NCBI GenBank assembly: GCA_040954595.2
Contig: CM082590.2
Location: forward strand, 5,766,001-5,830,000
Source: Balanoglossus misakiensis
Taxonomy: Eukaryota > Animalia > Hemichordata
Direction: 5' to 3'
Length of the DNA stretch: 64,000 bases
Under the pieces are notes generated by a model. The model was given only the letters and a program-made list of their open reading frames with translations, did not search any database and was not told the origin of the DNA. The position numbers and the translations under genes are program-made. How positions within the stretch are numbered: the stretch's first letter is position 1; each line of letters starts with the position of its first letter. Positions 2,390 through 58,761 of this stretch are shown piece after piece.

Positions 2390-3357
2390 CGATCTTATGT
2401 GACATTTCACCTACTTTTGCTTAGTGAGCATCCACAGCAGATGCATGCAGCTTTGGCGTGGTGGTGGGGGGGGGGATATACGGATGGGACCATAAAGATA
2501 TACCAAAGGCGGGGTCACCTGTTGCACCTGCCTAAGTCATTGATTTTGTACATTTAATTGGACACTAACCAACAGGGCGATAGGTGCGGTTTTTGTTCCA
2601 CAGGGACGAATGTAAGTGTCAGTTTGTTTTTGCCCAAATGTATAAGTTGATTTGGATGACCTCTGTCGTACAGTGCCATATCTCAGCCCGTTGTACAAGT
2701 GCAGCTTTGGTATTCGGAGCGAAACTATCATGAAATGCCAAATACAGGGGGATACCTGCGACACCTGCTTGATTCATGTATTACGTGCATACCTAATGGT
2801 AGGCAAAGTGAAAGGGCTGCAAATGTAGGATTTGTTGCACATGACATAAACAGGAATGAACATTTTTTGTCAAATTTTTGGGTGACATCAGGTGTCCATT
2901 GACCTGCTTTCCATATGTTAGCATGCACATCATGTATAGCCAGGTGTTTGGAGGGGTAGGGTAGGACCCTCTGCGTCATGAAATGCTAAATTTTAGGGGC
3001 TACCTGTAACTTACTTGCGTAACTCATTATTATAGCCATATCTAATTTGACAAACCCAAACAGCGAGGATTTTCCGTTGTCTTGAATATGAACAAAATAA
3101 GAATCCTAATTTTTGGCCCAATTTTTGGATACCCTCAGCTGACCTTTGAAGTAACTGAAGTACTTACAACGTAGAAGTTCACCTTTGGTTGTTGTGTTTG
3201 TATTTGTAAGACATCCATTTCGGGTGGTTGCCTACTTCCCCATATCTCCACATCCAGAGCAAATACAGCCTACGCATTTGAATGGTACAACCCTGAATGG
3301 AGTCTAATGGTTATTAACTCTATGCCTGGGCCCCTTCAACGCTGCTTGCAGCTTTAA
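2390..3357. mobile_element. Continuation of the HINE-like repeat family
   Basis: Same motifs as 1-1630 (ggggtcacctgt, cattaattatg); ends gctgcttgcagctttaa at 3341-3357. Confidence 0.4.
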
Positions 3358-3467
3358 TCATTTCTTGTTGTTAACAAGAAATGAATATTAGATTGAGCAG
3401 TTGACACATTTCAAGTATCAGACTGGTGATGTCATTTTTATTCCAACTTTAAACCTCTTCATTCCAG

Positions 3468-3566
3468 TTGGGTTACACAGCATTGCATTCAACGTCCAGC
3501 AAAGGTCAATTGGATGCTATGAGAGAGTTGATTAGCCATGGTGCAGATGTCAATGCGAAGAATGTG
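3468..3566 (+). CDS. ROCO exon A1: one ankyrin repeat (LGYTALHSTSSKGQLDAMRELISHGADVNAKNV)
   Basis: ttcattccag|...|gtacgt, 99 nt, phase 0/0, 33-aa ankyrin consensus. Confidence 0.9.
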
Positions 3567-6500: not shown

Positions 6501-9500
6501 TGAGAAACCAAGATGGCGGCCATAGCGCACACGTGCAAAATCCACCCAGTTTGTTTACAAATTGTTTTCGTGAAATCTGTTTTATTGTTCACGCACTGCG
6601 AAATAAAATGCCCCTAAACCACAATTTTTGTTTCAATGCTTCACGCAAACACAAAATTATTACGAAAAGTGTCAGCATTACCAAGAAATATGAGTGCCCA
6701 GTAGGACATGCAAAAAACATGGATGATTTGTTTACACTTTTTAAATGAAGCTTGTGGCACTAGAAATGACCGTTCAACTGACAGACGAACACCAAACCAT
6801 AATAATTAGCACAGACAACGTAATACTTTTTGAATTTTAGAAAAAAACGCAGTGGCTGCTGAAATATAGGAGTGCCAGTTTGGTGGCAAGTTTTCACATC
6901 ACTGGTGGAGTCGACATGTGCAGAAGTAAGGAAATCATTGTCCAACTGTCCTGGGTGTTAATTATATGCAAAAGAACATTGTCATACCAATAATCCCCAA
7001 ACCCTTTGATCTATGCCGCAGTTGCGCGTCCTTCTTTCTCTAGGGTCTGTGGTTATGGTGCCCCTACCTGATTTTGTTAATTTGGATTTGATCGGGTCAT
7101 AAATATGCAAATTAGATCTAAAAATAGAATTTTGGTCAAAAATCTTCTCCATAACTACATGTACCACATCAACACGCCATTGGACATCATCAACTCAGTT
7201 CCACAACAGCTAGCCAAGCATTGACCTTTCCGCTTAACAAAGACTCTTCCTTCAGGACACTTCGAAGGTACAATGGAGCTGCAATTTGGTAGGAATGTGT
7301 GTTATGGTGCCCCTATCTGATTTTGTTAATTGGAATTTTGATGGGGTCAGGAAAATGCAAATTAGAACCTTGGTGCTTCCTTTTGATGTTGTTCTTTAGA
7401 ATTCAATTCTTTCTTCTTTTAGCACAATGAATCAAGCTGAATTTGGATAAATACTTGTGATGTCTATGTTTGGTTTTGTTCAATAGAATACAATAATTAT
7501 GAATTAAAACCTTGTGTATTCATATCATTGCCCAGGTTACACTGTTAAAGTCAGCAGAGCTCTTTTGACCAATAGGTCACTTGTTTTCTTTAGCAGGCCA
7601 CATGCTTGCCGCTGCCCTGGAAACATAGCTCAGAAGATATATTTGTGAATGAGTCAATATCAGACACAAACTTATTTATTGGCACATTATCACTGAGAAT
7701 CTGTTTCAGTTTATCTTTAGTTGCTGAAACCATGCTTGCAATGAGGGAGAAGTTAACTTGATCTCTTTGAAACACAAGAGACAGCTCTGACAAAATGGAC
7801 AATACAGACTGCAATATATACAATGTGCCAACAAATTTAACCGACTTTATTTTCTTTAGCAGGCCACATGCAAGTGCATCATCTTCAAAGTCATTCAGAG
7901 TAAGGAGCAATGCCTCCAAATCCCTCAGAGTTGCCTCTACAGCTAGATTGAAACTCAACCACCTGGTGTTGCAAGCTTTTCTAAGTCTGTGCATGACAAT
8001 TTTCTGACTCTTGTCAGAGGTTAACTTTATTTTTGCAAGCTTTTCTTGCATTTTCAGATATGCTGCTAACCTCTTTGGGGAATTTTCAAAGAACTGCCAA
8101 AGCTGCTGAATTATTGTGGACACATCCTTCACATACTTTATGTTTGTATTACTGTCAGTACAAGCCAATGCCAACCTGTGGCAAACACAATGCACACTAA
8201 TGATCAAATTATTGTCAGACTTAAATTTGCTTGCAACACCACTTCTACTGGCAACCATGACAGCAGCCCCATCTGTTGACAACCCCTTACAGCTTTTCAC
8301 TGACAGATCATTAGATTCTATTTCTTTTTTCAGCAAGGGATATTTCATTATAACGTGGCTACATGCGTACTTACAACTTCATGACCACAGTGGAAACTTT
8401 TGATGATTATTTTATTGACACTCAGATGGAAATCATGAAACATTTATTTGTAGAGTCAAATTCTTTATCTTGCTGCTAGGAGTGTGTGAATATTCATTTC
8501 TTGTTGTTAACAAGAAATGAATATTAGATTGAGCGGTTGACACATTTCAAGTATCCGATTGGTGATGTCATTTTTATTCCAACTTTAAACGTCTTCATTC
8601 CAGGATGGTTGGACATCATTGCATGTAGCGTCCTTGAAAGGTAAATTGGATGCTGTCAGGGTGTTGATTAGTCTTGGTGCAGATGTCAATGTGAAGGATA
8701 GGGTACGTGAACTGACTTATTACTTCATCATGGATTACATGGCTAACATATATGAATAATTTTAAAAAATGCCTTTTAAAAAGACTTATTACAACACTAT
8801 ATTATTTTCATCCAAAATTACTTTGCATGATCCAAATTCAATGGGAAGAAACAAGCTAACCCCTTAACAAGAAGAGGGAAAATCCAAAAATTATTATCCG
8901 TACTGATTTACTTTTACTGACCATGATGATAGCCTTGGGATCCAGCCATAGGAAGGACAGTAGGACACATTGTACTCTAAATTTAACTCTCTTTACAATT
9001 TGGCCAAAGAAGTTGACACAGTTTGTGCCCGAATGAATAAATATGTTCCAGAAATTAAATTTTTATGGATTTTTTTTGTGTTTTGGGTTTTCAAGCCATC
9101 TCTGAAATGTTGCTGGCAATCTTTTTTTTTAATCTTCCAGATCCCTCCCACCCTGAATATCAAATGGTCCACCCCTAACTCAGCTATGGAGACTAAAACA
9201 TCCATTATCAAATCTATATCACCGATCAAAGCGTTTTCCTCGCTGTTAGAATCAATTGAGATTCTTCACTGTCATACTTGAATCTGTATTCACTTTAACA
9301 GTCGGCAATTTTCATTTTGTGTGTGGAAGGACTGTGGATTATCCTTTCAAATCAGTCAGTATGCTATTCTTGGTTGTTTTTGCAATATGGCTGATACTTT
9401 TGATATTTTTATTTATTTATCTGTTGGTTTATTTATTGTTTGTTTGTTTACACTTCACATTACATTTTTATATTTATTTGTTTGTTTTATGAAACCTCAC

Positions 9501-12500
9501 ATTACATTTCAAATTCTATGACATTGTCAGTGTTTTTGTTAATTAAGGGCGGTACCTAGGTAAAATCTACCGGAGTTCCCCGGTCATTTTACTGGGTGTA
9601 TCAATGTAGTTACCGTACTTGCCCGGGTAAGAACCCCTGCGCGGGCAAACGCCCCCCTGTGGTTTTAGGGCCCATTTGAAGATCGAGGTTATATCCGGTC
9701 GAATATTCATTATTCACCCCTTCCTCGTGTCCCTAGCCCCTTATTTGCAGAAAAGTTGAGGTGGTGCCCTGGCAAACCCCCCCCCCCCAGCCCCTGTTTT
9801 TTTTCGTTACTTTGGGGGCCCAGCACGTGGGGGCAAGTACGGTACATTAGGGGGTTGTAGAAATGTTACCGGGGTTCCCAAGTCCATTACCAATGTTCCC
9901 CAACCTTAGCAAAAACACTCATGCTCCTCCTTCATTACTTACAGAGAGGAGACATCCCTTTGCACACTGCAGCAGAGTATAACAATGAAGGCGGTGTCAG
10001 ATTGTTATTGAAACACAAAGCTGATGTGACCATACAAAACATGGTAAATACCTACCTGGCTTCTGCAGGTTAATTCTATCAGTTTAGAAACATTTATTTG
10101 TTTGTTTATTTGTTCGTTTAGGAAACCTCACAGAACATTTCAAATGTTATGACATTGTTCTCATGCTCCTCCTCCATTACATACAGAAATACTCACCAGA
10201 ACGGTATTGGCAAGAAATTAAGTTACTCACAAGGAAACTGCTTCATAATAATGGATGACCACAGACAAGTTCTGTACCTCTGATAACGATACCAGTAACT
10301 TAGGTGCTCTATGCGAATCAAAACACAGTATTTTACTCAAACAAACACTTTCTGAACATTAATGGTCATCAAAGTAATCTCTAGTCTTTTGTCTAAATAA
10401 AGATTCCCCATCCATGTACATTTTATGGTCTTATGCAGATCTTTACAAATTGATCCAAATCAGTTTTTCCCTCAAAACTGTCAAGATGAATAAAGGCACA
10501 ATCTACTACCCATATTTTCTTTAAATTGTTCATCGTTATGAGGAAATTTATCATCCTAGTACTGTTGAAAAACTAGAGTTTAATTATCAATTCAGTGTTA
10601 CAGTTGGTAGTCTGTTTGGTTGCGCTGTTTATGCATAACTTTTGTTGTTGTACCTCTTACATGATGTTGTCTGTTTTTGTTTCTTGGATAGGATGGCAAC
10701 ACAGCACTTCACATGGCAGCAATGGGCGGAGAAATTCGGGGGGATTATGGAAAAGTTGTGAAACTATTGTTGCAATATGGAGCTGATATTGACTGCAAAA
10801 ATAAGGTATAATCGTCCACTTTTATATTTTATTCCATGACACTCTAGACCTACACCATGTGTTCTGATCAACTCCCATTTTCTCAAGTAGTTAATCTTCA
10901 TAATCTTTGAATTTGAAATGCACAATTTTATCAAAGTCTTGAAATTTCCTGAACACTATTTTAACCAAGCACTCCTAAAACAGTATGAGTTTGCACAATG
11001 GTCTTCTTTCCAATTGTGGTTTTTGTGGTAAATTTTGTTGAGGATTTGTATCTATTTGCCATTGTCCTTTGAATCAAAAGTACTCCCTCTATCAGTTTAG
11101 GTGTTGTACAGGCAGGTGTTGACTCATGACGGTCGATGCCAATCCTATCTTTGAGACTTTCTATCTCCACTTTCAGTGATGTGGAGAGTATCAGATAGGG
11201 TGATTGTCTGTCGGACTCCAGCATCTGGCAACTCCTGTCTGTCACCTAATACAATTGATCATAAGGAGGTGCCATATAATTTGTCAATGTCCGTTGAATC
11301 AAAACTACTCCCTCTATCGGGTCAGATGTTGTACAGGCAGGTGTTGACTCATGACGGTCGATGCCAATCCTATCTTTGAGACTTTCTATCTCCACTTTCA
11401 GTGATGTGGAGAGTATCAGATAGGGTGATTGTCTGTCGGCCTCCAGCATCTGCCAACTCCTGTCTGTCATCTAATTCAATTGATCATAAGGAGGTGCCAT
11501 ATAATTTGTCATTGTCCTTTGAATCAAAACTACTCCCTCTATCGGGTCAGGTATTGTACTGGCAGGTGTTGACTCATGACGGTCGATGCCAATCCTATCT
11601 TTGAGACTTTCTATCTCCACTTTCAGTGATGTGGAGAGTATCAGATAGGGCGATTGTCTGTCGGCCTCCAGCATCTGCCAACTCCTGTCTGTCACCTAAT
11701 ACAATTGATCATAAGGAGGAGCCATATAATTTGTCATTGTCCTTTGAATCAAAACTACTCCCTCTATAGGGTCAGGTGTTGTACAGGCAGGTGTTGACTC
11801 ATGACGGTCGATGCCAATCCTATCTTTAAGACTTTCTATCTCCACTTTCAGTGATGTGGAGCGTATCAGATAGAGCGATTGTCTGTCGGACTCCAGCATC
11901 TGCCAACTCCTGTCTGTCATCTAATTCAATTGATCATAAGGAGGTGCCATATAATTTGTCATTGTCCGTTGAATCAAAACTACTCCCTCTATCGGGTCAG
12001 GTGTTGTACAGGCAGGTGTTGACTCATGACGGTCGATGCCAATCCTATCTTTGAGACTTTCTATCTCCACTTTCAGTGATGTGGAGAGTATCAGATAGGG
12101 TGATTGTCTGTCGGCCTCTAGCATCTGCCAACTCCTGTCTGTCACCTAATACAATTGATCATAAGGAGGTGCCATATAATTTGTCATTGCCCATTGAATC
12201 AAAATTACTCCCTCTATCGGGTCAGGTGTTGTACAGGCAGGTGTTGACTCATGACGGTCGATGCCAATCCTATCTTTGAGACTTTGTATCTCCACTTTCA
12301 GTGATGTGGAGAGTATCAGATAGGGCGATTGTCTGTCGGCCTTCAGTATCTGCCAACTCCTGTCTGTCACCTAATACAATTGATCATAAGGAGGTGCCAT
12401 ATAATTTGTCATTGCCCATTGAATCAAAACTACTCCCTCTATAGGGTCAGGTGTTGTACAGACAGGTGTTGACTCATGACGGTCGATGCCAATCCTATCT

Positions 12501-18500: not shown

Positions 18501-21500
18501 TTGAGAAAGTATATTCCATGTACAACACTATCTCGGTCACCATTCATGGCTTTTTGAAAGAGTTGCAGTTATTTCTATAATTAGTCTCCTGCAGATGTTG
18601 TTCAATAATTAAATTATTTCACATTGTTTATCGCATAGCTCCAAATATTACCTGAATCCTGAGAAATCTCATTGGATTCAATTCATGATCCCTTGGACTC
18701 AAAAATAATACTTTTCACAAATATTCTCATTTGTAGATTTTGTTTTGGTTGCGGTTTCTGAAAGGAACAACCCACATGGACAGGTATTCATTTGATAAGT
18801 CAGGAGAAGGATACGAGAAACCAGTGGTGATATTGGTTGCAAGTCGAGCTGATAAGTTGAAGAGAATCGATATGGCTCTAGGTTAGTGTTGTCAGCTTTT
18901 TCATATATCAAATAATATCTGTCATTTGTCCAAGTGTGTGTATGTATGTATGTGTGTATGTATGTACATACGTACTTACGTATGTGTGTGTATGTATGTA
19001 TGTATGTGTGTATGTATGTACGTACGTACTTACGTATGTGTGTGTATGTATGTATGTATGTATGTATGTGTGTATGTATGCACGTGTATGTGTGTATGTA
19101 TCTATGTGTGTGTATGTATGTTTGTTTGTTTGTTTTTTCACCATGCAGTCAGCAACAGAATACTTAGCATTTCAATATGAGTAGAACGTAGTTAGTTGAT
19201 TCACAAATCACAGTTTGGAAATAATCATAAAAAGCATTTAACCATTTCACCACCATGATTCAGTCCAAACCAATTGTTTTCTATGGTAAGGTTGGACCTC
19301 TAAAGAGGGAACTGGGGGTGAAAGGGTTAATGACTATTTTATGCCCAATAGAGAGAGAGAGGTTTACAGCAGAATTTTTTTTGCCATAGTTTCTGCATAT
19401 GGAGTTCTGTACATTGAATACTTACCCACCAAACTTTCGGGAATTAATACCTCAGGCTCCGTTAATTGCAAGATTAGAACTTTTAGCCTAGACTATCCTG
19501 TGACCTGGGTCACAGGACCCCCTAGCTCCTCAGTTTAATACCTTGCAGAGACTGCATCGGACATCTCTGTTCTCCGCTCCGTGCAAGTTCCTTCGTCGCG
19601 GCTGCTTTTTCTGCTCTAGGATCGACAGCTAAGTGATTTTTCCCTTGTTGGATATCATATTTCGTTGATCTCTGTTAGCGATTCCGCTAATTTTGTCTTT
19701 CAACGATTTTTTTTGGACTTTTTTGCCGTGTCCGCGTGTGATTATTTCGGCGGTACACGCAGCTTGCTTAGACGCTATATACGTTGTTTTTTCCACTCGG
19801 CGCGTTTTTCACGTCGACCGAGTTTGTTTACGGTTGCTTATAGAGGATTCTCTAGTATTCATAGACCGTTTTCAGTGTTTCTTGAATATTTTATTGTTAT
19901 TTTGGTCATCACTCGTTCCGATTCCTTGCCGATCATGGCTTCTCATTCGAATCGAACGTGTGATTGTGGTCAGCAGTTCTCACTGCTAGATAAGCATCGT
20001 CTGTGTTCCTTTTGCCGAGCATGCAAACAGGCTCAGCCTTGTGACATTTGCTCTTCGTGGACACAGAAAGATTGGTCTAATTTCGCCCCCTCGCTCGACG
20101 TTGCCACCGCGGACATCCCCGAGGCTGGCCCGTCATTGTCAATCTCTGACTTGCGAGGCGTTGGTCACGATCGTGCTCATTCGGCCGACAATACCAACAC
20201 TGAAATTAGTGCCATACAGGGCAGGCAAACTCCTAAGAAAACGGACGTATTGCCTTCCCGTCATACGGTAAGTGATGCTAGACCACTATCGGAATTTTCC
20301 GAAGGGTTTATTAACCCCGGTGAGACAACTCAGTTGTCTTCTCCCGTGGTTTCTGCCCGTGATATTTTCGCGCCAAACGGAATCACTTGTGTACAAGGTA
20401 GCAATTCCGTTCCTGCGCAATCTGCCCATGATATTTTCGCGCCAAACGGAATCACTTGCGTACAAAGTAGCAATTCCGTTCCCGCGCAATCTGCTTCCGT
20501 TGCTAGGGCACCCGAACCGACACGTACTGTGACAAATAATCAGGTTTTCGGGGGGCCTTTTCAGCAACACACTGGAGCAGTTCAAACAGGGCCTGCCCCA
20601 GCTGAGGTATTTCCAGGTTATCCTAACGTCAACCAATACCCTATACGGTACCAAGGTTCGATGTTTTCTCATGGTATACCTACTCAGGGCAATTTTCAGA
20701 GGGATTTCCAACAATCCGGCACTTTTCAGCCGTATGGAAATTATCCCCAGGTGTTCCATCCGGGTATGTATTATCAGCCCCCGGTTTGGAATTACCCTAA
20801 CCCTTATGTCTCAGGACAACAAATGTCGTACCGCCCTCCAAATGAGTCGAACGTTACGCAACCAGGGTTTCAGCAGCCTATCCCCATGGCAACAGGGCTT
20901 CCTATGGGAACCCCAGACCAGATTGGGACTGTACCGCTGCAAAGTCAGCCGTCTTCGACGGGAAGGCCTACCTCTCGGCAGACTCATCGTTCTGCCTCAG
21001 CGAGCATAGGACATAGCGGCAAACGCGCACACGTCCCTTCTGCTAGTGTTAGTCGTCCTGGCGCCCCTAGCAACGGGTCAAGTCAGTCGACACATAGTGT
21101 ACATACTGTTTCGGCAGGACAACCTTCAGCGGATAGATCCGATTATCAGGTTGCACGCGCCGTTGCTAAGAAACATACGTCTCAGTCTCGCGACGCACTT
21201 CAGCGTTATGCTTCTCCGGCGTCCAGTGAGGATGATGATGACGATATTGAATCATCAGTCTCCCCCTCTCGCCGTAATGTCGTCGACCCTGACTCCCTTT
21301 CCGTACGCGCTCCCTCCGAGGACCGCGAGTTGGAGGGTAATGAGTCAGACGCGGTCGCTATCCAGTCGGTTGCCAGCGAAGCTAGGTCAACACAACAGGA
21401 AGTCGACAGTTATGACACACAGTCCAACATTGGAGATACTGGGTCAAGAAAGTCAGACAGTTATTTCCACCGTTGCTATGGGTATGTTTATGAGACGTTC

Positions 21501-24500
21501 GGGGAGGAATGCCCTCCCCCTCCACTACCTCCTCGGCCTGAATCTCATGTGTTGGCGTTTGTCGATCCAACAAAGAAACAGACCGATCTCCGTTCACTGC
21601 CTAATTCTCTTGCGCTGAGTACCACCATAGAGAGAGTACAGCGAGAGATAGCAGGAACTAGCCCCAACACGCTGCCATTACCTATCGGTAGACTACCGGC
21701 AGCATCCAGTCTGTTGCGCAACAAGCGATATAAGACGCATGACTCATTGTTTTCGGCTGGCCTCCCTAAATTAGATGAGGACGCCGTCAAAGTGGATAAT
21801 CAAGCTGGAGCATTTAAAACTGTCCCAATTGACCGCACGGCATTGCGGATCCTTGGACAGTCTGTTAATGCAACGGTGCGGACAATTTCTCATTTGGACT
21901 GGTTCGTGGCACAATTAGTGCGCATCGCAGAGTCCCCTGAGCACCCCAGTCAGTTTGCGGACTTAACTCGAGCTATCGGTAATACCCTAGTGCATAGTCT
22001 CGAGTTTTCCGTTCGTAGTCATGCCATGCTTCAATTATTGGAACGAGATGCATTTCTCAATCGCCCCTCCGTTCAATTAACCGACGAGCTTAAAGCCAAA
22101 GCACGTGTAGTGCCATTGGACCCTAAAGCTCTGTTTGCTGGCAAATTAGCCGGTTTCGCCAAGGAAGCCACTAAAGCCGTTCAGAGTAACGCTTGGCTAT
22201 TTGGACGAAACGGACAGAAAGTGCAGGACACAGGCGCGAATACAAATCGCCCCAAGCAGTCCTCCAAAAAGCCTAAAGCCGGGGGTAAGGCACAGTCTAA
22301 GTCATATAAACCTCGTGCCCAACCCTACAACAAAGGCATTCGAAGTAAGCCGAAAAGGGCATTTCCTACTTCGACACCTACAACGTCTGGCCAGAAAGGT
22401 CAGCGCTCCTGACTACCCAATATCGCTACCTCCCATTCCATCACCGGACATTCAAGTGGGAGGGCGCCTTCGTCACTTCGCCAACGAATGGCAGAAAGTG
22501 ACAGACGACCAATGGGTGTTGTCAGTCGTTCGAAACGGGTTCAAACCAGAGTTTCTGACCGATCCTCCATTATCTTGGGACCCACCGCGTTTTGCCAATC
22601 GGGCAGGGCCACGCACGTCGGCAATTGCCGAGGCAGTGCAAGGGCTGTTATCAAAAAATGCGGTACGGATTGTAAACCCGTCTATAGACGGACCGGGATT
22701 TTACAACCACTTGTTTCTCGTTCCCAAAAAGACAGGGGGGTGGCGGCCGATTCTAAATCTAAGACCTTTAAACCGGTTTCTCCGCATAGAATCTTTTTCA
22801 ATGGAAACCACTCGGTCCATACTGGCCGCGGTACAACCCGGCGATTGGATGGTTTCCATAGATCTCAAGGACGCGTACTTTCATATCGCGATCCACGAGG
22901 ATTTCAGAAAATACTTCCGGTTTTCAGTAAACGGAATCGTTTACGAATACACGGCTCTTCCGTTCGGCCTAGCGTCAGCACCTCGCGTGTTTACCAGAGT
23001 AGTGTTAGAGCTAGTAGGGTTTCTTCATCGCCAATCTGTCAGAACGCATCCGTATCTCGACGATTGGCTGCTACCCAATCTAAGAAGAGACGTACTCGAG
23101 AAGCATGTCTTTCTAGCTTGGTCCATTCTCCTTCGCCTCGGCCTCATTCCGAGTCTGGAGAAGTCAGCCCTCACCCCATCACAAGACATGGTATTTGTTG
23201 GGATGAGACTTATGACACACGCAGGAATTGTTTGCCCTACCCCAGATCGAGTGGACAGACTTTTGGCTGTCATCAACTCAATCCTGTCTCGCACATCTAT
23301 CCCGGTCAGGCTCCTGTTGGAGGCTATCGGGGTGATGGTGTCTATGTTGGCAATCATTCCCTGGGCACGCCTGCGTCTTCGACCAATTCAGCTGTACTTA
23401 CTGGCCCTTTGGCGGCCATCTCGACAGCCGATAGATCACATTATTCATGTACGACCGGCTCTCCGTGTCCACCTATGGTGGTGGCTAGACACAGAGAATC
23501 TGCTGAAAGGTGTTCCCCTACGGGTACCACCACCCACTCAGTTTCTGTTCACGGATGCTTCAACAACAGGTTGGGGAGCGCATCTGGACGAACTGACTGC
23601 ATCGGGCAGTTGGTCAGTCGACCAACAAGAGCATCACATCAATTGGTTGGAACTCCAAGCTGTGTTTCTGGCTCTCAAATGTTTTCAGCGGTCGGTCACC
23701 AACCAGCATGTTCTGGTCAATTCAGACAATGCTACAGTGGTGGCTTATATAAACAAAATGGGGGGGACCAGATCCCCAACCCTGTGTTACCTGACTTGGG
23801 AATTGTTCATGTGGTGCAAGAACCACAATATTCTCCTTCGAGCCCGTCATCTGCCCGGCAAACGGAATCACGTTGCCGACGCTCTGTCACGAGACCGCAA
23901 GGTGGTCCCGACGGAGTGGGAAATTCCCCAAGAAATAGCCAATCAGATTTTTGCGAAATGGGGAACTCCCATGGTGGACTTGTTTGCGACGTTTCAGAAC
24001 CGCAAACTGCCTCGGTTTGTGTCGCCAGTCCCAGACAGCAGAGCTCTAGCCGTCGACGCATTGTCGATGTCGTGGAAAAGCCTACTTCTGTACGCGTTCC
24101 CACCACTGCCTCTCTTACCACTAGTCTTAAGGAAAATAGTGGACGAGGAAACAACTGTGATTCTAATAGCACCGGTCTGGCCGAAGCGCTCATGGTATCC
24201 GATGCTACTGGACTTAATGATAGATCGACCTCTGGAGTTACCTCTCCGCGAGGATCTACTGTCCCAGGGTCCTCAACTGATTCATCCCGACCCAAGCGTG
24301 TTCAGACTTCACGCGTTCAAGTTGTCGAGCAATCCCTCATTGCGAGCGGATTTTCTGAGACAGCTGCCGCCACCATCGCTAGACCTCAGAGAGCCAGCAC
24401 CTTGGCAACTTATGAGGACAAGTGGACAAAATTCTGTGATTGGTGTGATAAACGGAGTGTTGATCCACTCACAATTTCTGTTAACCAACTAGCGGAATTC

Positions 24501-27500
24501 TTTTTATTCTTACATAATGTTAAGAAATTCTCCCCGAGCACTTTGACTGTTTATCGTACCGCTATTGCAGCGACGATCAGAAGTGTCGGGGGTCCTGATT
24601 TTAGTCACAATGCAGCTTTATCTGCAATGCTCAAGAATTTCAAGATTGAGAGACCCCCGTCGAGGCGGTTGGTCCCTCAATGGAGTTTGTCCTTGGTTCT
24701 AAGCGGGTTACAACAACCTCCTTTTGAACCATTAGCTTCTATCAGTTTAAAGGCACTTACCCTTAAAACTGTCTTTCTTGTAGCGTTGGCATCTGGCAGT
24801 CGCAGAAGCGAGATTCATGCTTTTGGTGCCACTGATGGCTTGTTGACTATTAGTAAGACGGAGGCAGTCTTACGTACTAGACCAGGTTTTTTGGCTAAGA
24901 CCCAGGTGCTTGGTTCTGTAGCCACCCCTTTTTCCATTAAAGCTCTTGACTCCCTGACAGGGCCGGATCCACAAGAGCGTTTGTTATGTCCGGTACGTTG
25001 CCTTCGCTGGTACTTGAAACGAACCGAGTCCTTTCGTGCGGGTAGGACTAGACTTTTTCTACCTATTCCCCCCACTCCCAAAAAGGATATTTCAAAGTCC
25101 ACCATTTCTAGTTGGCTCACTAAAACGGTTCGTTGGACTTATGATGAGAGTTCAGAAACTGACCGTCGCCTTACCAGAGTGACAGCCCATGAGGTTAGGG
25201 CTATCTCTGCTTCACTGGTGTATTCAGCTGGTGTTCCTGCTGACGATGTCCTTCGTGCAGGTACATGGCGCTCACCTAATTCCTTTGTCAGTTTTTATCT
25301 TCGGGATATGGCTTCAGAATCGGACGGTTTGTTTTCCCTTGGTCCGATTTCCGTTGGCCAGCAGGTTGTCATTCCTGGTAAATAAATAATGGATTCCCCA
25401 CCTCCGAAGGTCTGTCGGATTCTGTTATTTTCCCGAAAGTTTGGTGGGTAAGTATTCAATGTACAGAATTGAAGTTTATTTCTAAACTAATTTCTGTAAC
25501 ATTAGAATACTTACCCACCATTCCCACCCGCCTCCCCACTAGGTGTTGTCTGAATATTTATTTTACCTGGGGACGTTTTTGTTATTTATGGTCAAGCCCG
25601 TGTTGGTGACCACCTGTACTCCCCACCAGGTATTGTTCGGATATTTTATTTTACCTGGGGACGTATTATTACCATAGACAGTATGTCTATGTTATTACTT
25701 AACGGTCAAGCCTGTGTTGGTGACCACCTCTATAGGAGTGATCTCCTCGATATTATGGTCACTTTGTTTTTGTCTGCCTATGCAATTACATGTGCATTTA
25801 TTGACTTGTCTATTTAGACCACCTGTCTATTACGGCCAGTTTAGGAGGTCCGTTGACAGACAGGACCCTCTGGGCTATTTTTGACTGTTAGTTTTTTGGT
25901 GGGTGTATTATTGTTTCTACGAACATATGGATCACCGTTCTTGTTTGCTTTTGGCACCTGGCGGTTATCTGGGTTTTTTGTTTGTGGAATTATCATTCTC
26001 TAGCTGTCGTACTCTAAAGAGCGCATTCATGCAGTCTCTGGCGGAGTATAAACTGAGGAGCTAGGGGGTCCTGTGACCCAGGTCACAGGATAGTCTAGGC
26101 TAAAAGTTCTAATCTTGCAATTAACGGAGCCTGAGGTATTAATTCCCGAAAGTTTGGTGGGTAAGTATTCTAATGTTACAGAAATTAGTTTAGAAATAAA
26201 CTTCAATTATCTGGCTATTAATATTGTCATCTCTTTATAATTTACAGCTCGTCATTTGCTGAAGGAAGTTCTGACAGAAGCCCAGACTATGTTTCAAGAT
26301 TATTTAGACATAGTGAGCGACATATTTCCGTTGAATTGTCGTGATTCTACAGACAGTGAAATGAAGAAACTCCGTGATTGTTTAAATCAGAAAAAGGTAA
26401 CAATATTTCGCTGTAGTCATTTGCCTCTGAATTGTTAAGTTTTATCAGCACAGATACACTATAGCACTGCAGTATTGGTGTACAACTACAAGATTCATGA
26501 AGAATATATATCTGATTGTGTAAAACATTACATCCTCATCAAGTTGTACAAGTACTAGTTGATATTAGAATTCTGGCAAAAGTAACATTTTCAGTAATTA
26601 CAAACGAAAAAAATGTCGTCTCGAATGCATTGTTATTATATTATACTTGCATGGCCAGTCATGGTTTTATTTAATATTTCTTTTTTGTGACACAGTCCCT
26701 AAATTGACTGAATATAATGTTTGGCTACTTCCAATTATTTCATGTTATCAATTTATTTTTATTCTTAGAAAGTGAAAATGCTTCCAAGCGTGTGTGCCAA
26801 GATAATGGAAAAGAAGAGGGAATTATATGATGACTTCCCTGCTCTTTATTGGACAGAATATGTGGCGAAAATCAAAGAAATATACCCCACGATTGACGAA
26901 AGCTTCTTACGAAAAGCCACCAACTATCTGCATGACATAGGAGAGGTCAGTAACAAGGAACAACATGTTGCTCATCCATTCTCTGTTAGTACAAATTCTG
27001 GGATGAGTGTATGTGATACATCAAACTTGACAAAATGAATTTATCAGCGTTTAATGCAGTTGATTTATAAAAGAGTTACAGATTGTTCCTTCCATAACAA
27101 TTTTTCACGATATTTTTTCTTGTTTACAGCTTTTGTTTGTGAAGAAGTCATCTCTAGAAAGAAAAGATGTCGTGGTATTGGATCCAAACTGGTTGTGTTC
27201 CAGGATGTTTGGACCAATGTTGGCTACCCCTTTATTTGCACAATTCAGTTCCAGGTTCAAGAGAGATTGTTTTCAGTCAATGGACACAATCGAAGATGTA
27301 CTTGGTAAAGGTGTTAACAGCCAACTGATCGTCGACCTTCTAGAGGATTTTGAGCTTCTCTGTCAAGCACATGATATCACAGAGACGGGAGAGAAACTTT
27401 TCGTCATACCAGGGCTTCAAGACGACGATATGCCTGAAGGTCAATGGGAGGTGAGCCGAATGAAGACCATCTACATTGGAAGACGTTTTGAATGCCACGA

Positions 27501-28503
27501 TGAAACAGATTCCTTTACGGCAGGCTTTTTCCCAAGATTACAGACCCGTCTATATAAGCATTTCACAGAGCTTGGCCAGCCACCCAGTGGCTTATGGAAA
27601 AATGGTATCAAAGTGTGCCATGATGTTGAAGGTCTTGTCTTTATGACCAATGGCAGAAGGGCAGTCAATGTCTGCGTACGAGTTGAAGACAAGAAGTCGA
27701 TTGGTGAGGGCTACAAGCTTCTTGAGATGGTTTCCAAAGACATACAGGATGTCTTCTCGATCGCATGTCCAGGCAACAGGATGAATCAGCTTATCCTGAG
27801 TGCAGATTCTCTTGCAAACCACAGCAACATGGAAAAAGTAGAGTTTTACACTCTCGATGAGGTGCTACGTGCAGAAGACATGGGAAAGAAAGTGTACAAC
27901 CAAAAAGTTGGTAAAGCAGAAGATGTTTGTGACCTGCTTTGTCAAGGTCATGACACAACGATCTTACGAAGGAAGTGGAAACGCTGTGATATCAAATGGA
28001 TGCTTGAAGATACCAGACGCAAATTGACCATGGGAATGGACATTGAGCGTGGACACCCTTCCTTGCACTATGCCACCATGGCCGAATGGATGGGAATCGG
28101 GTACCAGGATGTCAAGGCACTGGAAAAGGTGGCAAGTCTAACAGGTCGACAAGTTACAGACTGCATCTTCGAAGAGTGGTGTCGCAGATGGATGAAACAA
28201 CATCAAAGTGGAAAAGACACAACTACAGCTGCAGGTGCCAGAGCCATGTCACATGACATCGATGCCACCAAAAGTCGTATGGCAAAAATGTCACTGTCAT
28301 CAACATCGTCAGCCCCGCAAGATTCAAGTGAAGAAGCAAAGGCTCAGAAAACAGCAAGACAGAAGTATCCATGTGTAGAGGGACCCCTCTTCGAAAGCAA
28401 CTTTGAGAATCTGTTGGCAATTTTCCAGACCATGGGAAGAGACGACATGGTAGCGTTGATTGAAGAGATGTTCGAAGAAATTGCGAAAACACAAATGAAA
28501 TGA
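3468..28503 (+). CDS. ROCO-family gene, DAPK1-like (ankyrin repeats-ROC GTPase-COR-death domain); 13 exons in window, 5' end outside window
   Basis: Exons 3468-3566, 8604-8702, 9945-10043, 10692-10805, 15021-15119, 15888-16001, 17422-17490, 17684-17803, 18180-18419, 18737-18881, 26248-26396, 26769-26945 and 27130-28503 all have AG/GT boundaries and join in one frame. Motifs: ankyrin TALH/TPLH, P-loop GDGGVGKTT, TPGI, WDFAGQ, VASRAD, COR YLHDIGE..VLDPNWL, C-terminal death domain. No kinase exon seen in the window. Confidence 0.9.
3923..4165. repeat. Minisatellite, 44-bp unit (two 22-bp subunits), about 5 copies
   Basis: gctgtataaatcaatgtactcggcagtagaaatcagcgtactcc recurs at 3935, 3979, 4023, 4067, 4111, 4155. 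Confidence 0.9.
4190..6950. mobile_element. Probable decayed DNA transposon material, including Lys-rich coiled-coil ORF 5447-5896 (-)
   Basis: Intronic insertion with a truncated basic coiled-coil ORF and promoter-like aagatggcg motifs; termini not resolved. Confidence 0.3.
7590..8348 (-). mobile_element. hAT-superfamily transposase fragment (ZNF862-like)
   Basis: Motifs STDGAAVM, HCVCHRLALA and TRWLS typical of the hAT catalytic core; truncated at both ends; intronic. Confidence 0.85.
8604..8702 (+). CDS. ROCO exon A2: one ankyrin repeat (DGWTSLHVASLKGKLDAVRVLISLGADVNVKDR)
   Basis: ttcattccag|...|gtacgt, 99 nt, phase 0/0; flanking introns paralogous to exon A1. Confidence 0.9.
9528..9920. 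mobile_element. MITE (hAT-like CAG termini) just upstream of exon B1
   Basis: cagtgtttttg...caaaaacact inverted ends; interrupts the gacattgt|tctcatgctcc sequence seen intact at 10151. Confidence 0.55.
9945..10043 (+). CDS. ROCO exon B1: one ankyrin repeat (RGDIPLHTAAEYNNEGGVRLLLKHKADVTIQNM)
   Basis: ttacttacag|...|gtaaat, 99 nt, phase 0/0. Confidence 0.9.
10692..10805 (+). CDS. ROCO exon C1: ankyrin repeat with 5-aa insert (DGNTALHMAAMGGEIRGDYGKVVKLLLQYGADIDCKNK)
   Basis: ttggatag|...|gtataa, 114 nt, phase 0/0. Confidence 0.9.
11056..14853. repeat. Intronic satellite, 225-bp unit, about 17 copies
   Basis: Exact 225-bp periodicity (11246, 11471, 11696...), with one 2-bp insertion near 13721. 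Confidence 0.97.
15021..15119 (+). CDS. ROCO exon B2: one ankyrin repeat (VGNTPLHDAAGSNKEGCLRLLLEHKADVTIQNK)
   Basis: ttacttacag|...|gtaaat, 99 nt, phase 0/0; duplicate of B1. Confidence 0.9.
15888..16001 (+). CDS. ROCO exon C2: ankyrin repeat with insert (DGNTALHMAAMGEEYRGDYGKVVKLLLQYGADIDCKNK)
   Basis: ttggatag|...|gtacaa, 114 nt, phase 0/0; duplicate of C1. Confidence 0.9.
16118..16565. mobile_element. TTAA-targeting MITE
   Basis: TTAA-ACCCCGGTGCGG ... CCGCACCGGGGT-TTAA; absent from the paralogous intron at ~10915. Confidence 0.8.
16686..17105. repeat. Second array of the 225-bp satellite, about 2 copies
   Basis: Same unit as 11056-14853, in the paralogous position after exon C2. Confidence 0.95.
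17422..17490 (+). CDS. ROCO exon: C-capping ankyrin half-repeat (TGKTPLDVAEKESVKKLLLDYIQ)
   Basis: aattag|...|gtgagt, 69 nt. Confidence 0.85.
17684..17803 (+). CDS. ROCO exon: ROC P-loop (KLFFAGDGGVGKTTLLESL)
   Basis: aaccag|...|gtatgt, 120 nt, Walker A motif. Confidence 0.92.
18180..18419 (+). CDS. ROCO exon: ROC switch I/II (TPGID, WDFAGQAEY)
   Basis: atcaaag|...|gtaaga, 240 nt. Confidence 0.92.
18737..18881 (+). CDS. ROCO exon: ROC G4 region (ILFWLRFL...VILVASRADK)
   Basis: ttgtag|...g|gttagt, 145 nt, phase 0/1. Confidence 0.9.
18934..19135. repeat. (TATG)n/(TG)n microsatellite
   Basis: Read directly. Confidence 0.95.
19238..19330. mobile_element. Tiny piggyBac-like MITE
   Basis: TTAA-CCATTTCACC ... 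GGTGAAAGGG-TTAA. Confidence 0.6.
19935..22412 (+). CDS. DIRS ORF1 gag-like protein
   Basis: ATG at 19935; N-terminal Cys/His cluster (CDCG..DKHRLCSFC..CDIC..W); 69-bp internal duplication at 20361/20430. Confidence 0.85.
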   Translation: MASHSNRTCDCGQQFSLLDKHRLCSFCRACKQAQPCDICSSWTQKDWSNFAPSLDVATADIPEAGPSLSISDLRGVGHDRAHSADNTNTEISAIQGRQTPKKTDVLPSRHTVSDARPLSEFSEGFINPGETTQLSSPVVSARDIFAPNGITCVQGSNSVPAQSAHDIFAPNGITCVQSSNSVPAQSASVARAPEPTRTVTNNQVFGGPFQQHTGAVQTGPAPAEVFPGYPNVNQYPIRYQGSMFSHGIPTQGNFQRDFQQSGTFQPYGNYPQVFHPGMYYQPPVWNYPNPYVSGQQMSYRPPNESNVTQPGFQQPIPMATGLPMGTPDQIGTVPLQSQPSSTGRPTSRQTHRSASASIGHSGKRAHVPSASVSRPGAPSNGSSQSTHSVHTVSAGQPSADRSDYQVARAVAKKHTSQSRDALQRYASPASSEDDDDDIESSVSPSRRNVVDPDSLSVRAPSEDRELEGNESDAVAIQSVASEARSTQQEVDSYDTQSNIGDTGSRKSDSYFHRCYGYVYETFGEECPPPPLPPRPESHVLAFVDPTKKQTDLRSLPNSLALSTTIERVQREIAGTSPNTLPLPIGRLPAASSLLRNKRYKTHDSLFSAGLPKLDEDAVKVDNQAGAFKTVPIDRTALRILGQSVNATVRTISHLDWFVAQLVRIAESPEHPSQFADLTRAIGNTLVHSLEFSVRSHAMLQLLERDAFLNRPSVQLTDELKAKARVVPLDPKALFAGKLAGFAKEATKAVQSNAWLFGRNGQKVQDTGANTNRPKQSSKKPKAGGKAQSKSYKPRAQPYNKGIRSKPKRAFPTSTPTTSGQKGQRS
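22201..24492 (+). CDS. DIRS ORF2 reverse transcriptase-RNase H-adenine methyltransferase-like
   Basis: IDLKDAYF, LPFGL, YLDD (RT); FTDASTTGWG, ELQAV, DNAT (RNase H); DLFAT..YAFPP (MTase). The true start is uncertain. Confidence 0.95.
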   Translation: MDETDRKCRTQARIQIAPSSPPKSLKPGVRHSLSHINLVPNPTTKAFEVSRKGHFLLRHLQRLARKVSAPDYPISLPPIPSPDIQVGGRLRHFANEWQKVTDDQWVLSVVRNGFKPEFLTDPPLSWDPPRFANRAGPRTSAIAEAVQGLLSKNAVRIVNPSIDGPGFYNHLFLVPKKTGGWRPILNLRPLNRFLRIESFSMETTRSILAAVQPGDWMVSIDLKDAYFHIAIHEDFRKYFRFSVNGIVYEYTALPFGLASAPRVFTRVVLELVGFLHRQSVRTHPYLDDWLLPNLRRDVLEKHVFLAWSILLRLGLIPSLEKSALTPSQDMVFVGMRLMTHAGIVCPTPDRVDRLLAVINSILSRTSIPVRLLLEAIGVMVSMLAIIPWARLRLRPIQLYLLALWRPSRQPIDHIIHVRPALRVHLWWWLDTENLLKGVPLRVPPPTQFLFTDASTTGWGAHLDELTASGSWSVDQQEHHINWLELQAVFLALKCFQRSVTNQHVLVNSDNATVVAYINKMGGTRSPTLCYLTWELFMWCKNHNILLRARHLPGKRNHVADALSRDRKVVPTEWEIPQEIANQIFAKWGTPMVDLFATFQNRKLPRFVSPVPDSRALAVDALSMSWKSLLLYAFPPLPLLPLVLRKIVDEETTVILIAPVWPKRSWYPMLLDLMIDRPLELPLREDLLSQGPQLIHPDPSVFRLHAFKLSSNPSLRADFLRQLPPPSLDLREPAPWQLMRTSGQNSVIGVINGVLIHSQFLLTN
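22488..25385 (+). CDS. DIRS ORF3 tyrosine recombinase with long N-terminal overlap on ORF2
   Basis: RRSEI, LCPVR, HEVRAISAS, GTW..FVSFY catalytic motifs in the C-terminal ~350 aa. Confidence 0.93.
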   Translation: MAESDRRPMGVVSRSKRVQTRVSDRSSIILGPTAFCQSGRATHVGNCRGSARAVIKKCGTDCKPVYRRTGILQPLVSRSQKDRGVAADSKSKTFKPVSPHRIFFNGNHSVHTGRGTTRRLDGFHRSQGRVLSYRDPRGFQKILPVFSKRNRLRIHGSSVRPSVSTSRVYQSSVRASRVSSSPICQNASVSRRLAATQSKKRRTREACLSSLVHSPSPRPHSESGEVSPHPITRHGICWDETYDTRRNCLPYPRSSGQTFGCHQLNPVSHIYPGQAPVGGYRGDGVYVGNHSLGTPASSTNSAVLTGPLAAISTADRSHYSCTTGSPCPPMVVARHRESAERCSPTGTTTHSVSVHGCFNNRLGSASGRTDCIGQLVSRPTRASHQLVGTPSCVSGSQMFSAVGHQPACSGQFRQCYSGGLYKQNGGDQIPNPVLPDLGIVHVVQEPQYSPSSPSSARQTESRCRRSVTRPQGGPDGVGNSPRNSQSDFCEMGNSHGGLVCDVSEPQTASVCVASPRQQSSSRRRIVDVVEKPTSVRVPTTASLTTSLKENSGRGNNCDSNSTGLAEALMVSDATGLNDRSTSGVTSPRGSTVPGSSTDSSRPKRVQTSRVQVVEQSLIASGFSETAAATIARPQRASTLATYEDKWTKFCDWCDKRSVDPLTISVNQLAEFFLFLHNVKKFSPSTLTVYRTAIAATIRSVGGPDFSHNAALSAMLKNFKIERPPSRRLVPQWSLSLVLSGLQQPPFEPLASISLKALTLKTVFLVALASGSRRSEIHAFGATDGLLTISKTEAVLRTRPGFLAKTQVLGSVATPFSIKALDSLTGPDPQERLLCPVRCLRWYLKRTESFRAGRTRLFLPIPPTPKKDISKSTISSWLTKTVRWTYDESSETDRRLTRVTAHEVRAISASLVYSAGVPADDVLRAGTWRSPNSFVSFYLRDMASESDGLFSLGPISVGQQVVIPGK
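25430..25520. repeat. DIRS internal complementary region (ICR)
   Basis: ttcccgaaag...gtacagaa|ttgaag...cccacca is complementary to the left-ITR start and to the right-end extension. Confidence 0.95.
26248..26396 (+). CDS. ROCO exon: ROC C-terminus (IFPLNCRDS..MKKLRDCL)
   Basis: tttacag|ct...aag|gtaaca, phase 1/0, compatible with the exon before the DIRS element. Confidence 0.88.
26769..26945 (+). CDS. ROCO exon: COR start (…ATNYLHDIGE)
   Basis: ttcttag|...|gtcagt, 177 nt. Confidence 0.9.
27130..28503 (+). CDS. ROCO terminal exon: COR plus death domain
   Basis: tttacag| acceptor; VLDPNWLC, FFPRLQ, LWKNG; death-domain-like TRRKL..EW..LLAIFQTMGRDD; TGA at 28501-28503. Confidence 0.92.
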   Translation, partial: LLFVKKSSLERKDVVVLDPNWLCSRMFGPMLATPLFAQFSSRFKRDCFQSMDTIEDVLGKGVNSQLIVDLLEDFELLCQAHDITETGEKLFVIPGLQDDDMPEGQWEVSRMKTIYIGRRFECHDETDSFTAGFFPRLQTRLYKHFTELGQPPSGLWKNGIKVCHDVEGLVFMTNGRRAVNVCVRVEDKKSIGEGYKLLEMVSKDIQDVFSIACPGNRMNQLILSADSLANHSNMEKVEFYTLDEVLRAEDMGKKVYNQKVGKAEDVCDLLCQGHDTTILRRKWKRCDIKWMLEDTRRKLTMGMDIERGHPSLHYATMAEWMGIGYQDVKALEKVASLTGRQVTDCIFEEWCRRWMKQHQSGKDTTTAAGARAMSHDIDATKSRMAKMSLSSTSSAPQDSSEEAKAQKTARQKYPCVEGPLFESNFENLLAIFQTMGRDDMVALIEEMFEEIAKTQMK

Positions 28504-31600: not shown

Positions 31601-31808
31601 ACACAGATCATTTATGAAGTCAATGTGAATAACTTTACTTGAAGTCAATATATTGTAAACAGAATAGCAGAGTTGTAATAATTTGTCTGGTCACAATATG
31701 TCATATAGACACATCACGTACATGGACATGAATGCAAGAATTGACACAGATTGTTTATGAAGTCAATGTGAACAACATTACTTGAAGTTAGTACATTGTA
31801 AACAGAAT
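28620..31808. repeat. Satellite, ~142-bp unit, about 16-17 copies, interrupted by a MITE
   Basis: gacatgaatgcaag at 28771, 28913, 29054... Confidence 0.97.
30384..31206. mobile_element. Non-autonomous DNA transposon with 32-bp perfect TIRs and 7-bp TSD
   Basis: CACGGTTACTAGAAGAAGACGGTTAGGAAACT and its reverse complement; CTTTACT duplicated at 30377-30383 and 31207-31213. Confidence 0.92.
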
Positions 31809-32182
31809 AATGTGAATAACTTAAAATTAATTCCTTTATTGTCATATATATCTCTGAAAGAATCTCAGCAAATACTTACTAGTATGTTTTTAATTGTCGA
31901 ATGATTTCTTTCTAGCAAAATATCTATCCACAAATTTCATAAACACAACAGTTTAACATCATAGTTTTTTGTTGTTGTTTTTTGGGGGGAGGGTGATTGA
32001 TTGGCTGTTTATTTTGGTATTTTTGTTTTATTTCTTTCAATAAATTACTTGCCACAAATATTAGTATGTTTTTCTTATTTTCATGTTACCAACGAAATGT
32101 GGAATACATTACATCTAAAGGAAAAATTATTTTTCTGAAAATCTGTCCGGACACATAAGTGAACAGCCCAGATACAGTGCAT

Positions 32183-34151: not shown

Positions 34152-34499
34152 TTAAAGGAACAAAGTCTCTCTCTCGCTGCCCCTTTTTCATTAATTATGT
34201 TTGATACAAGACACTGTTTATGTTATTCTACATGTGGATATATAGTGAATCAATGTTCGACCACACACAACTTCCATCCCACTTGTAGACACGAGAGTTA
34301 AAAAACTCGCCAAAAAGAATAATCAGTGTTTACCATTTATTCATTTTGGTGAGATTTTCACTCTCATATCCTACAAACGGGATGGAAAATGTGTGTGGTC
34401 GAACGTTGATTCACTATATATCCACATGTAGAATAACATAATTATCAAACATAATTAATGGAAAAAGGGCAGTGAGAGAGAGAGACATTGTCCCTTTAA
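34152..34499. mobile_element. Kolobok-like palindromic MITE, family 1
   Basis: TTAA-AGG(G/A)ACAAAGTCTC ... GTCCCT-TTAA; further copies listed below. Confidence 0.8.
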
Positions 34500-50870: not shown

Positions 50871-50989
50871 TCTGAAGTAACTTACATCTGTCAAAACAAC
50901 GAAAGAAAAATAAGGACCATCAGTGTACACGTCCATGCTGTGATGGATAATACATGATGACATACAAGTTGACATTGGCATTGAATAGG

Positions 50990-52228: not shown

Positions 52229-58761
<6,533 letters not shown>

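What the first reader, a model, noticed from the sequence alone, without database searches (positions are those of the whole stretch)
3468..28503. Candidate diversifying immune receptor: ROCO gene with a modular array of one-repeat ankyrin exons, hypervariable at DARPin-like positions
Seen: six ankyrin repeats, each on its own phase-0/0 exon (99 or 114 nt), in the order A1-A2-B1-C1-B2-C2, followed by a cap, ROC, COR and a death domain. Any exon can be skipped, duplicated or lost without a frameshift. In both 99-nt duplicate pairs the changed codons include exon positions 1, 3, 8, 11, 14, 18 and 33. Established: positions 1, 3, 8, 11, 12 and 33 lie on the beta-turn/first-helix binding surface, most of which is randomised in DARPin libraries. 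Brown-algal LRR-ROCO genes show one-repeat-per-exon shuffling and were proposed as pathogen receptors, and the sensor-NTPase-death domain layout parallels NLRs. Inference: an animal ankyrin-ROCO receptor family that diversifies by exon duplication, alternative splicing and positive selection.
Basis: partly seen in the sequence, partly recalled or inferred. Interest (0 to 1): 0.88.

Follow-up and report, generated by a model that had tools for sequence, protein, structure and literature searches.

The report
Acorn-worm ankyrin-ROCO receptor under diversifying selection
A gene, most likely from an acorn worm, joins six single-exon ankyrin repeats to a LRRK2/DAPK1-type GTPase module and a predicted death domain, and its recently duplicated repeats differ mostly on the face that is predicted to bind targets, so it is likely one member of an overlooked, fast-evolving family of invertebrate immune sensors, although its ligand, expression and splicing are untested.

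Summary
Thirteen AG/GT-bounded exons give 965 codons with no internal stop: six one-repeat ankyrin exons (A1-A2-B1-C1-B2-C2), cap, Roc, COR and a death-domain fold (Z 11.6 to MyD88 DD) with a ~60-residue insert. The 5' end is not in the window. In the A and B exon pairs, non-synonymous divergence at DARPin-randomised positions is 0.54 per site, against 0.12 at synonymous sites (p 7.5e-5), 0.046 in flanking introns and 0.10 at outer-helix positions. The C pair shows no excess. The gene sits in a hemichordate clade of kinase-less ANK-Roc-COR-death proteins labelled 'DAPK1-like' (15 clusters in Ptychodera flava). Amphioxus and echinoderm relatives swap the tail for CARD, caspase or GT4, and amphioxus repeats show the same hot positions. 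Supported: exon duplication, surface diversification, an expanded family, very probably not DAPK1. Not shown: alternative splicing (1 of 7 relatives' isoform pairs drops whole repeats, in amphioxus), exon-number polymorphism, expression, ligand. Phase 0 is not special to the repeats (11 of 12 introns). The selection test rests on two pairs. Verdict: an animal counterpart of brown-algal LRR-ROCO and fungal ANK-NLR receptors; new variant of a known kind.

The parts
3468..3566 (+). ankyrin exon A1 (99 nt, phase 0/0); first exon visible in the window, no start codon
   Evidence: Pfam Ank E 3.4e-8
8604..8702 (+). ankyrin exon A2; duplicate of A1 with flanks (3355-3609 vs 8491-8745)
   Evidence: 23 of 99 nt differ, 13 non-synonymous and 2 synonymous codons; flanks 7 of 156
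9945..10043 (+). ankyrin exon B1
10160..10186 (+). orphan copy of the B acceptor with about 100 nt of its upstream intron and no exon behind it (possible empty cassette); copied again at about 15232-15258
   Evidence: 26 of 28 nt identical to the B1 acceptor; upstream match score 91 vs best shuffle 44; no likeness to a B exon downstream
10692..10805 (+). ankyrin exon C1 (114 nt, 5-residue insert after helix 1)
11054..14853 (.). 225-bp tandem array (16.9 copies) in the C1-B2 intron; 1.9 copies at 16686-17108 after C2; marks the end of the duplicated B-C unit
15021..15119 (+). ankyrin exon B2; duplicate of B1
   Evidence: 16 of 99 nt differ, 11 non-synonymous and 2 synonymous codons; flanks 24 of 531
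15888..16001 (+). ankyrin exon C2; duplicate of C1
   Evidence: 6 of 114 nt differ, 2 non-synonymous (both in the insert) and 3 synonymous codons; flanks 12 of 249
17422..17490 (+). capping half-repeat exon (69 nt)
   Evidence: same place as the cap of P0154
17684..17803 (+). Roc exon 1 with P-loop GDGGVGKTT
18180..18419 (+). Roc exon 2 with G2 (TPG) and G3 (WDFAGQ); acceptor is the least certain, relatives have about ten more residues here
   Evidence: (Roc E 1.2e-6)
18737..18881 (+). Roc exon 3 with G4-like VASRAD
19405..26208 (+). DIRS-like retrotransposon in intron 10 (inverted ends; three long open frames: gag-like, RT/RNase H/methyltransferase, tyrosine recombinase); passenger
   Evidence: the name DIRS is recalled from this layout
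26248..26396 (+). Roc exon 4
26769..26945 (+). COR-A exon
27130..28503 (+). last exon: rest of COR (fold matches C. tepidum Roco and LRRK1/2 COR) and death domain (about 27985-28500) with a low-confidence insert at about 28219-28401; stop

Best explanation
This is a kinase-less ankyrin-Roc-COR-death-domain gene of a likely acorn worm whose duplicated single-repeat exons differ mainly on the predicted binding face, and it likely works as an NLR-like intracellular sensor. Shown: exon layout, open frame, intact GTPase motifs relative to its family, COR and death folds in predicted models, excess amino-acid change at concave-face positions, an expanded family with varying repeat numbers and tails. 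Inferred: the ankyrin groove binds a variable non-self ligand (a microbial protein or a modified host protein); binding shifts the GTP/GDP-dependent Roc-COR dimer; the death domains are thereby clustered or freed and recruit a death-fold adaptor or caspase, giving cell death or NF-kB-type signalling. New specificities would arise in the germ line by tandem duplication and loss of one- or two-exon units followed by selected point changes, possibly with exchange between paralogous exons.
For: Selection: at positions 1, 3, 11, 12, 31, 33 (fixed in advance from DARPin libraries) pN 0.54 (16.1 of 29.6 sites) vs pS 0.12 (5.4 of 44.4), p 7.5e-5; vs introns 43 of 936, p 1.8e-13; still p 0.012 without the two junction codons; outer-helix control pN 0.10, p 0.69. 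Same hot positions in relatives' near-identical repeats: hemichordates 21 vs 9 changes in 11 disjoint pairs (p 0.032), amphioxus 39 vs 2 in 12 pairs (p 1.3e-5). In true ankyrins this groove is the target-binding surface and is nearly invariant (PMC4358367, passages); in fungal NLRs it is where positive selection maps (PMC4986451, passages). Family: 15 Ptychodera, 6 Saccoglossus and 2 Glandiceps clusters; 6 of the Ptychodera clusters lie on contigs of one length, i.e. probably one chromosome; window sister to P0006/P0154, support 0.998; P0154 has the same B-C-cap order. Relatives end in death, CARD, caspase or GT4-conflict domains. No kinase motif in any of the fetched proteins. Contigs of another sample stack on the A and B exons (13-19 and 20-22 contigs).
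Against: Only two informative exon pairs; the third (C) shows pN below pS. Whole-exon pN vs pS is not significant (A+B p 0.083). Framework sites have pN about equal to pS (0.14 vs 0.12), and synonymous sites diverged more than introns (p 0.02), which points to relaxed constraint or exon-limited gene conversion. B1 carries Ile at the conserved Thr of TPLH where all laid contigs have Thr. Many Ptychodera models are truncated. The starfish relative is conserved between species (11 differences in residues 1-330), so not all members diversify. 0 of 3 hemichordate isoform pairs differ by ankyrin repeats. No RNA, ligand or functional data; 5' end unseen.
Confidence: 0.6

Rival explanations
1. The ankyrin face diversifies under selection, but the protein is not a pathogen sensor: it is a host signalling adaptor escaping a pathogen's inhibitor, a decoy, or a self/non-self or gamete recognition factor.
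For: The selection signal shows conflict, not its direction. The architecture is that of DAPK1 without its kinase, and DAPK1 repeats bind host proteins (PMC13755220, passages).
Against: Escape would need few changes at one site; here several positions across the groove change in many paralogues and lineages, repeat number varies, and tails are swapped among immune effector domains.
Confidence: 0.2
2. A redundant or decaying paralogue: the exon differences come from relaxed selection plus gene conversion with older copies, and they fall on surface positions only because those tolerate change.
For: Framework pN about equals pS; synonymous sites exceed introns (p 0.02); Thr-to-Ile in B1's TPLH; transposons and arrays fill the introns; many truncated models in Ptychodera; many A- and B-like contigs that could be donors.
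Against: Relaxation cannot push a site class 4- to 7-fold above the synonymous rate; equally exposed outer-helix positions stay at the synonymous level; conversion from older copies needs donors that already differ at the same positions; 965 codons remain open with GTPase motifs and a confident COR/death model.
Confidence: 0.15
3. An ordinary DAPK1 orthologue whose kinase exons lie upstream of the window.
For: Same order ANK-Roc-COR-death; databases name the relatives 'DAPK1-like'; upstream DNA is not held.
Against: Close relatives with complete N-termini start with an ankyrin cap (P0001, P0156, P0157, P0168, P0017); no kinase motif in any fetched protein; no kinase-bearing DAPK1 among the 150 best of 214 hits; the family is multi-copy.
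Confidence: 0.04

Closest known systems
Hemichordate 'DAPK1-like' database models (Ptychodera flava XP_070550841.1 = P0154, XP_070549583.1 = P0006; Glandiceps XP_077996865.1 = P0001)
   Same: ANK-Roc-COR-death-like, no kinase; 43-52% identical over the last exon; P0154 has the same B-C-cap order
   Different: Only automatic names; I found no paper describing them (10 searches). Their exon structure could not be fetched.
Brown-algal LRR-ROCO candidate receptors (PMC3341825, passages; PMC11378527, first part of the text and passages)
   Same: Repeat sensor before Roc-COR, one repeat per exon, exon duplication, positive selection on the concave face
   Different: LRR instead of ankyrin, no death domain; those genes show orphan and inverted exons in introns and alternative splicing, of which this window shows neither, apart from one exon-less acceptor
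Fungal NLRs with ANK repeats (PMC4986451, passages)
   Same: ANK repeats with high internal identity, positive selection on inner helix and beta-hairpin
   Different: NACHT ATPase, effector at the N-terminus; repeat-number polymorphism was shown there and is untested here
Vertebrate DAPK1 (PMC13755220, passages)
   Same: Ankyrin repeats, Roc, COR, C-terminal death domain in this order
   Different: DAPK1 has an N-terminal Ca/calmodulin kinase and eight repeats; this family has no kinase and is multi-copy with variable repeats
Trichoplax ROCO expansion (PMC4104024, passages) and bacterial LRR-AP-GTPase conflict systems (PMC8195603, passages)
   Same: Expanded repeat-Roc-COR proteins with CARD/death or varied effector tails
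   Different: TPR or LRR sensors; no exon-level or selection analysis in the passages read

Membership tests
ROCO proteins | Roc GTPase domain with G1-G4 motifs | tested here: met
   Pfam Roc E 1.2e-6, above cut-off; motifs match relatives; GTP binding itself not tested
ROCO proteins | COR domain directly after Roc | tested here: met
   Pfam COR-B E 2.1e-8; Foldseek to C. tepidum Roc-COR E 2.5e-9 and LRRK1/2
DAPK1 orthologues | N-terminal Ca/calmodulin-regulated kinase | tested here: inconclusive
   No kinase in the window or in any fetched relative, but the gene's own 5' end lies outside the window
DAPK1 orthologues | Single conserved gene that groups with DAPK1 | tested here: not met
   Nested in a multi-copy hemichordate clade, support 0.953 and 0.998; no named kinase-bearing DAPK1 was available for the tree, so its exact relation to DAPK1 is open
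DAPK1 orthologues | C-terminal death domain | tested here: met
   Predicted model, Z 11.6 to MyD88 DD, 14 best rows all death domains; no Pfam hit
Brown-algal-type shuffled ROCO receptors | One repeat per symmetric exon | tested here: met
Brown-algal-type shuffled ROCO receptors | Repeats are LRR | tested here: not met
   They are ankyrin repeats
Brown-algal-type shuffled ROCO receptors | Positive selection on the concave face | tested here: met
   Counting test on two pairs, protein-level support in relatives; no codon site model possible with so few copies
Brown-algal-type shuffled ROCO receptors | Orphan or inverted repeat exons in introns | tested here: not met
   No further repeat on either strand; one exon-less acceptor
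Brown-algal-type shuffled ROCO receptors | Alternative splicing of repeat exons | not testable with these tools
   No RNA of this gene was examined; 1 of 7 relatives' annotated isoform pairs lacks exactly three repeats (amphioxus)
NLR/STAND receptors | NACHT or NB-ARC ATPase | tested here: not met
   The nucleotide-binding domain is Roc; NB-ARC and NACHT score below cut-off on the P-loop only. The claim is 'works like', not 'is'

The most novel reading that the evidence does not exclude
Acorn worms and amphioxus keep a natural DARPin library: a genome-wide pool of tens of single-repeat ankyrin exons that are copied, lost, exchanged between ROCO genes and combined by splicing, giving each individual a different set of GTPase-switched intracellular receptors wired to death domains, CARDs, caspases or GT4 enzymes, a receptor class parallel to NLRs in invertebrate deuterostomes and now hidden under the label 'DAPK1-like'.
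Probability: 0.22. Interest if true: 0.87.

Novelty: new variant of a known kind. Interest (0 to 1): 0.64.

Why it matters
It would extend the repeat-sensor/Roc-COR receptor idea, so far argued for brown algae and bacteria, to the closest invertebrate relatives of vertebrates, with ankyrin repeats diversified at the positions protein engineers randomise. It names a testable family (dozens of mis-labelled 'DAPK1-like' models) and bears on what ROCO GTPases such as LRRK2, MFHAS1 and DAPK1 did ancestrally in immunity.

Tried and rejected
No whole genome is held, so upstream exons and genome-wide paralogues could not be read. Runs X4/X5 covered the exons barely and were not used. Per-site variation among B-type exons of the same species remains unmeasured. 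Pfam, phmmer against PDB, Foldseek (best E 2.9) and the Atlas (score 0.76, Death cluster, lead only) did not by themselves establish the death domain; only the VIA-align search did. The idea that the sequence after the orphan acceptor is a B donor or a decayed B exon was tested and rejected (scores 15, within shuffles). One ATG-led candidate first exon at 863-931 is unlike relatives' N-caps and was rejected. Terminal repeats of the transposon remnant between A1 and A2 were not found. Joints (3611>8802, 9527>9918, 10186>9985) each rest on one contig with 20-37 letters on the short side and are taken only as hints of other exon arrangements. Tree: 54 of 57 proteins kept, P0155, P0176, P0188 dropped for short matches; FastTree, midpoint root, no named DAPK1. 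Two searches for a paper on ankyrin exon phase and two reads for DARPin position numbers gave no such passage, so both points are recalled. Earlier-findings look-ups by place and by sequence were empty. No supplements were read; supplements of the brown-algal and TRADD-N papers may list animal ANK-ROCO architectures.

Full report
Gene model. A scan for AG/GT-bounded open exons found the six ankyrin exons at the stated places. With seven further exons the model has 2898 nt, 965 codons, no internal stop, and canonical splice dinucleotides throughout. Each repeat exon passes Pfam Ank; Roc and COR-B pass their cut-offs. tblastn of three relatives confirms every Roc and COR exon in order, and a profile of relatives' repeats finds six and only six repeats in 64 kb. 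No start or N-cap exon lies in the window and no genome is held, so the gene is incomplete at the 5' end. Introns hold a transposase remnant, a 225-bp array and a 6.8-kb DIRS-like element. Eleven of twelve introns are phase 0. From memory, vertebrate ankyrins and DAPK1 also place introns at repeat borders; I could not confirm this in print. The modular layout is thus permissive, not proof of shuffling.

Domains. A model of the last exon (pLDDT 87.9) matches COR of C. tepidum Roco and LRRK1/2. The last 172 residues, modelled alone, match death domains: MyD88 Z 11.6, rmsd 3.2, 99 aligned, and the 14 best rows are all death domains. A low-confidence insert of about 60 residues interrupts the domain, which probably explains the Pfam miss.

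Duplication history. A1 and A2 share 255 nt with flanks; the B-C unit (about 9919-11475) is repeated at about 14995-17107. Flanking introns differ by 4.5-4.8% in all three pairs (7 of 156, 24 of 531, 12 of 249), but the exons by 23 of 99, 16 of 99 and 6 of 114. Behind B1 lies a second B-type acceptor with its upstream intron and no exon, which may be the trace of a lost or partly copied cassette.

Selection. To avoid picking positions after the fact I used the DARPin-randomised set (exon positions 1, 3, 11, 12, 31, 33; recalled; 3, 11, 12 and 31 visibly vary among DARPin modules; PMC8229355, one passage, places the randomised positions on the concave face). Against this: the C pair has pN below pS, whole-exon pN vs pS is not significant (p 0.083), framework pN about equals pS, and synonymous sites exceed introns (p 0.02), so relaxed constraint or exon-limited conversion probably contributes. 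At protein level, disjoint near-identical repeat pairs of relatives change more at the DARPin set than at outer positions: 21 vs 9 in 11 hemichordate pairs (p 0.032) and 39 vs 2 in 12 amphioxus pairs (p 1.3e-5); echinoderms gave 0 close pairs, and two starfish orthologues differ at only 11 of the first 330 residues. True ankyrins keep this groove nearly invariant (PMC4358367, passages); fungal NLR ankyrins diversify it (PMC4986451, passages).

Family. The nearest proteins are hemichordate: 52% identity to P. flava P0006, 47% to Glandiceps P0001; the window's organism is therefore likely an acorn worm, not identified further. Searches give 15 Ptychodera, 6 Saccoglossus and 2 Glandiceps clusters at 90% identity; some may be fragments of one gene. 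The P0006 cluster has five members on four contig lengths, most truncated. In a COR tree (54 of 57 proteins kept) the window is sister to P0006/P0154 (0.998) inside a clade whose named members are all hemichordate (0.953). Ankyrin motif counts run from 3 (P0157) to 15-16 (P0001, P0156). No fetched protein has a kinase catalytic motif; 1 of 30 scanned has a C-terminal kinase fragment, 0 of 15. Amphioxus and echinoderm relatives end in death, CARD, caspase or GT4-conflict domains, the effector swapping typical of NLRs and of bacterial LRR-AP-GTPases (PMC8195603, passages).

Same-species data. The best DNA holder has 0.51 of the sampled words. Its two runs (one sample) lay 13 and 19 contigs on a site in A2 and 22 and 20 on a site in B1, with summed depth 1,862 and 18,972 in X1 against 144-242 on long intronic pieces. 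The tool warns that depth is no copy number; I read it as a hint that A- and above all B-type exons occur many times elsewhere, not necessarily in ROCO genes. All those contigs have Thr where B1 has Ile in TPLH.

Splicing. No RNA of this gene was examined. Of 7 annotated isoform pairs of relatives, one (amphioxus P0166/P0167) differs by exactly three repeats; the three hemichordate pairs differ in Roc exons or the N-terminus. Alternative splicing is possible, not shown.

Literature. Ten searches found the brown-algal ROCO papers (PMC3341825 passages; PMC11378527 first part and passages), the Trichoplax expansion (PMC4104024 passages), Aplysia and anemone TIR-ROCO genes (PMC9334734, PMC5094078 passages), DAPK1 architecture (PMC13755220 passages), and no description of an animal ankyrin-ROCO family with exon-level diversification. 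PMC11378527 notes about forty domain combinations in animal ROCOs, so the architecture itself is probably catalogued. PMC11463336, PMC8602657 and PMC12314368 (passages) added nothing on this family. The library lacks most subscription journals and no supplements were read.

Verdict. Real gene, real surface diversification on a small sample, real kinase-less family. It most likely works like an NLR with a GTPase switch; it is a ROCO, not an NLR, and very probably not DAPK1. New variant of a known kind; interest 0.64.

Noticed in passing
window 19405-26208: DIRS-like retrotransposon with three long open frames and 95%-complementary inverted ends inside intron 10; looks young
   Followed up: partly
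window 7590-8378 (-): Transposase-like open frame between A1 and A2, hAT/ZNF862-like by recalled motifs; no Pfam hit, ends not found; may have taken part in the A duplication
   Followed up: partly
window 28624-30383 and 31207-31809: 142-bp tandem array starting about 120 nt after the stop codon, interrupted by an insertion of about 800 nt; may lie in the 3' UTR
   Followed up: no
window 17996-18140: Small inverted-repeat element just upstream of the Roc exon 2 acceptor, where the protein lacks about ten residues found in relatives
   Followed up: partly
window 28219-28401: Disordered insert of about 60 residues inside the death domain, longer than in the four relatives aligned
   Followed up: partly
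window 48498-51032 (-): Large exon of a GKAP/DLGAP-family gene (Pfam GKAP E 5.5e-7) with a 75-bp coding tandem repeat
   Followed up: no
window 32389-34194 (-): Reverse-transcriptase frame of a LINE-like element (Pfam RVT_1 E 3.4e-36)
   Followed up: no
window 57815-58132 (-): Exon resembling a CDK4/6-type kinase (recalled motif), on the opposite strand and downstream, unrelated to the ROCO gene
   Followed up: no
proteins P0021-P0031, P0178, P0185: Amphioxus and echinoderm ANK-Roc-COR proteins with CARD, caspase or GT4-conflict tails, several annotated as DAPK1; the amphioxus set has the strongest surface hypervariability and one repeat-skipping isoform, and may be the best system to study
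   Followed up: partly
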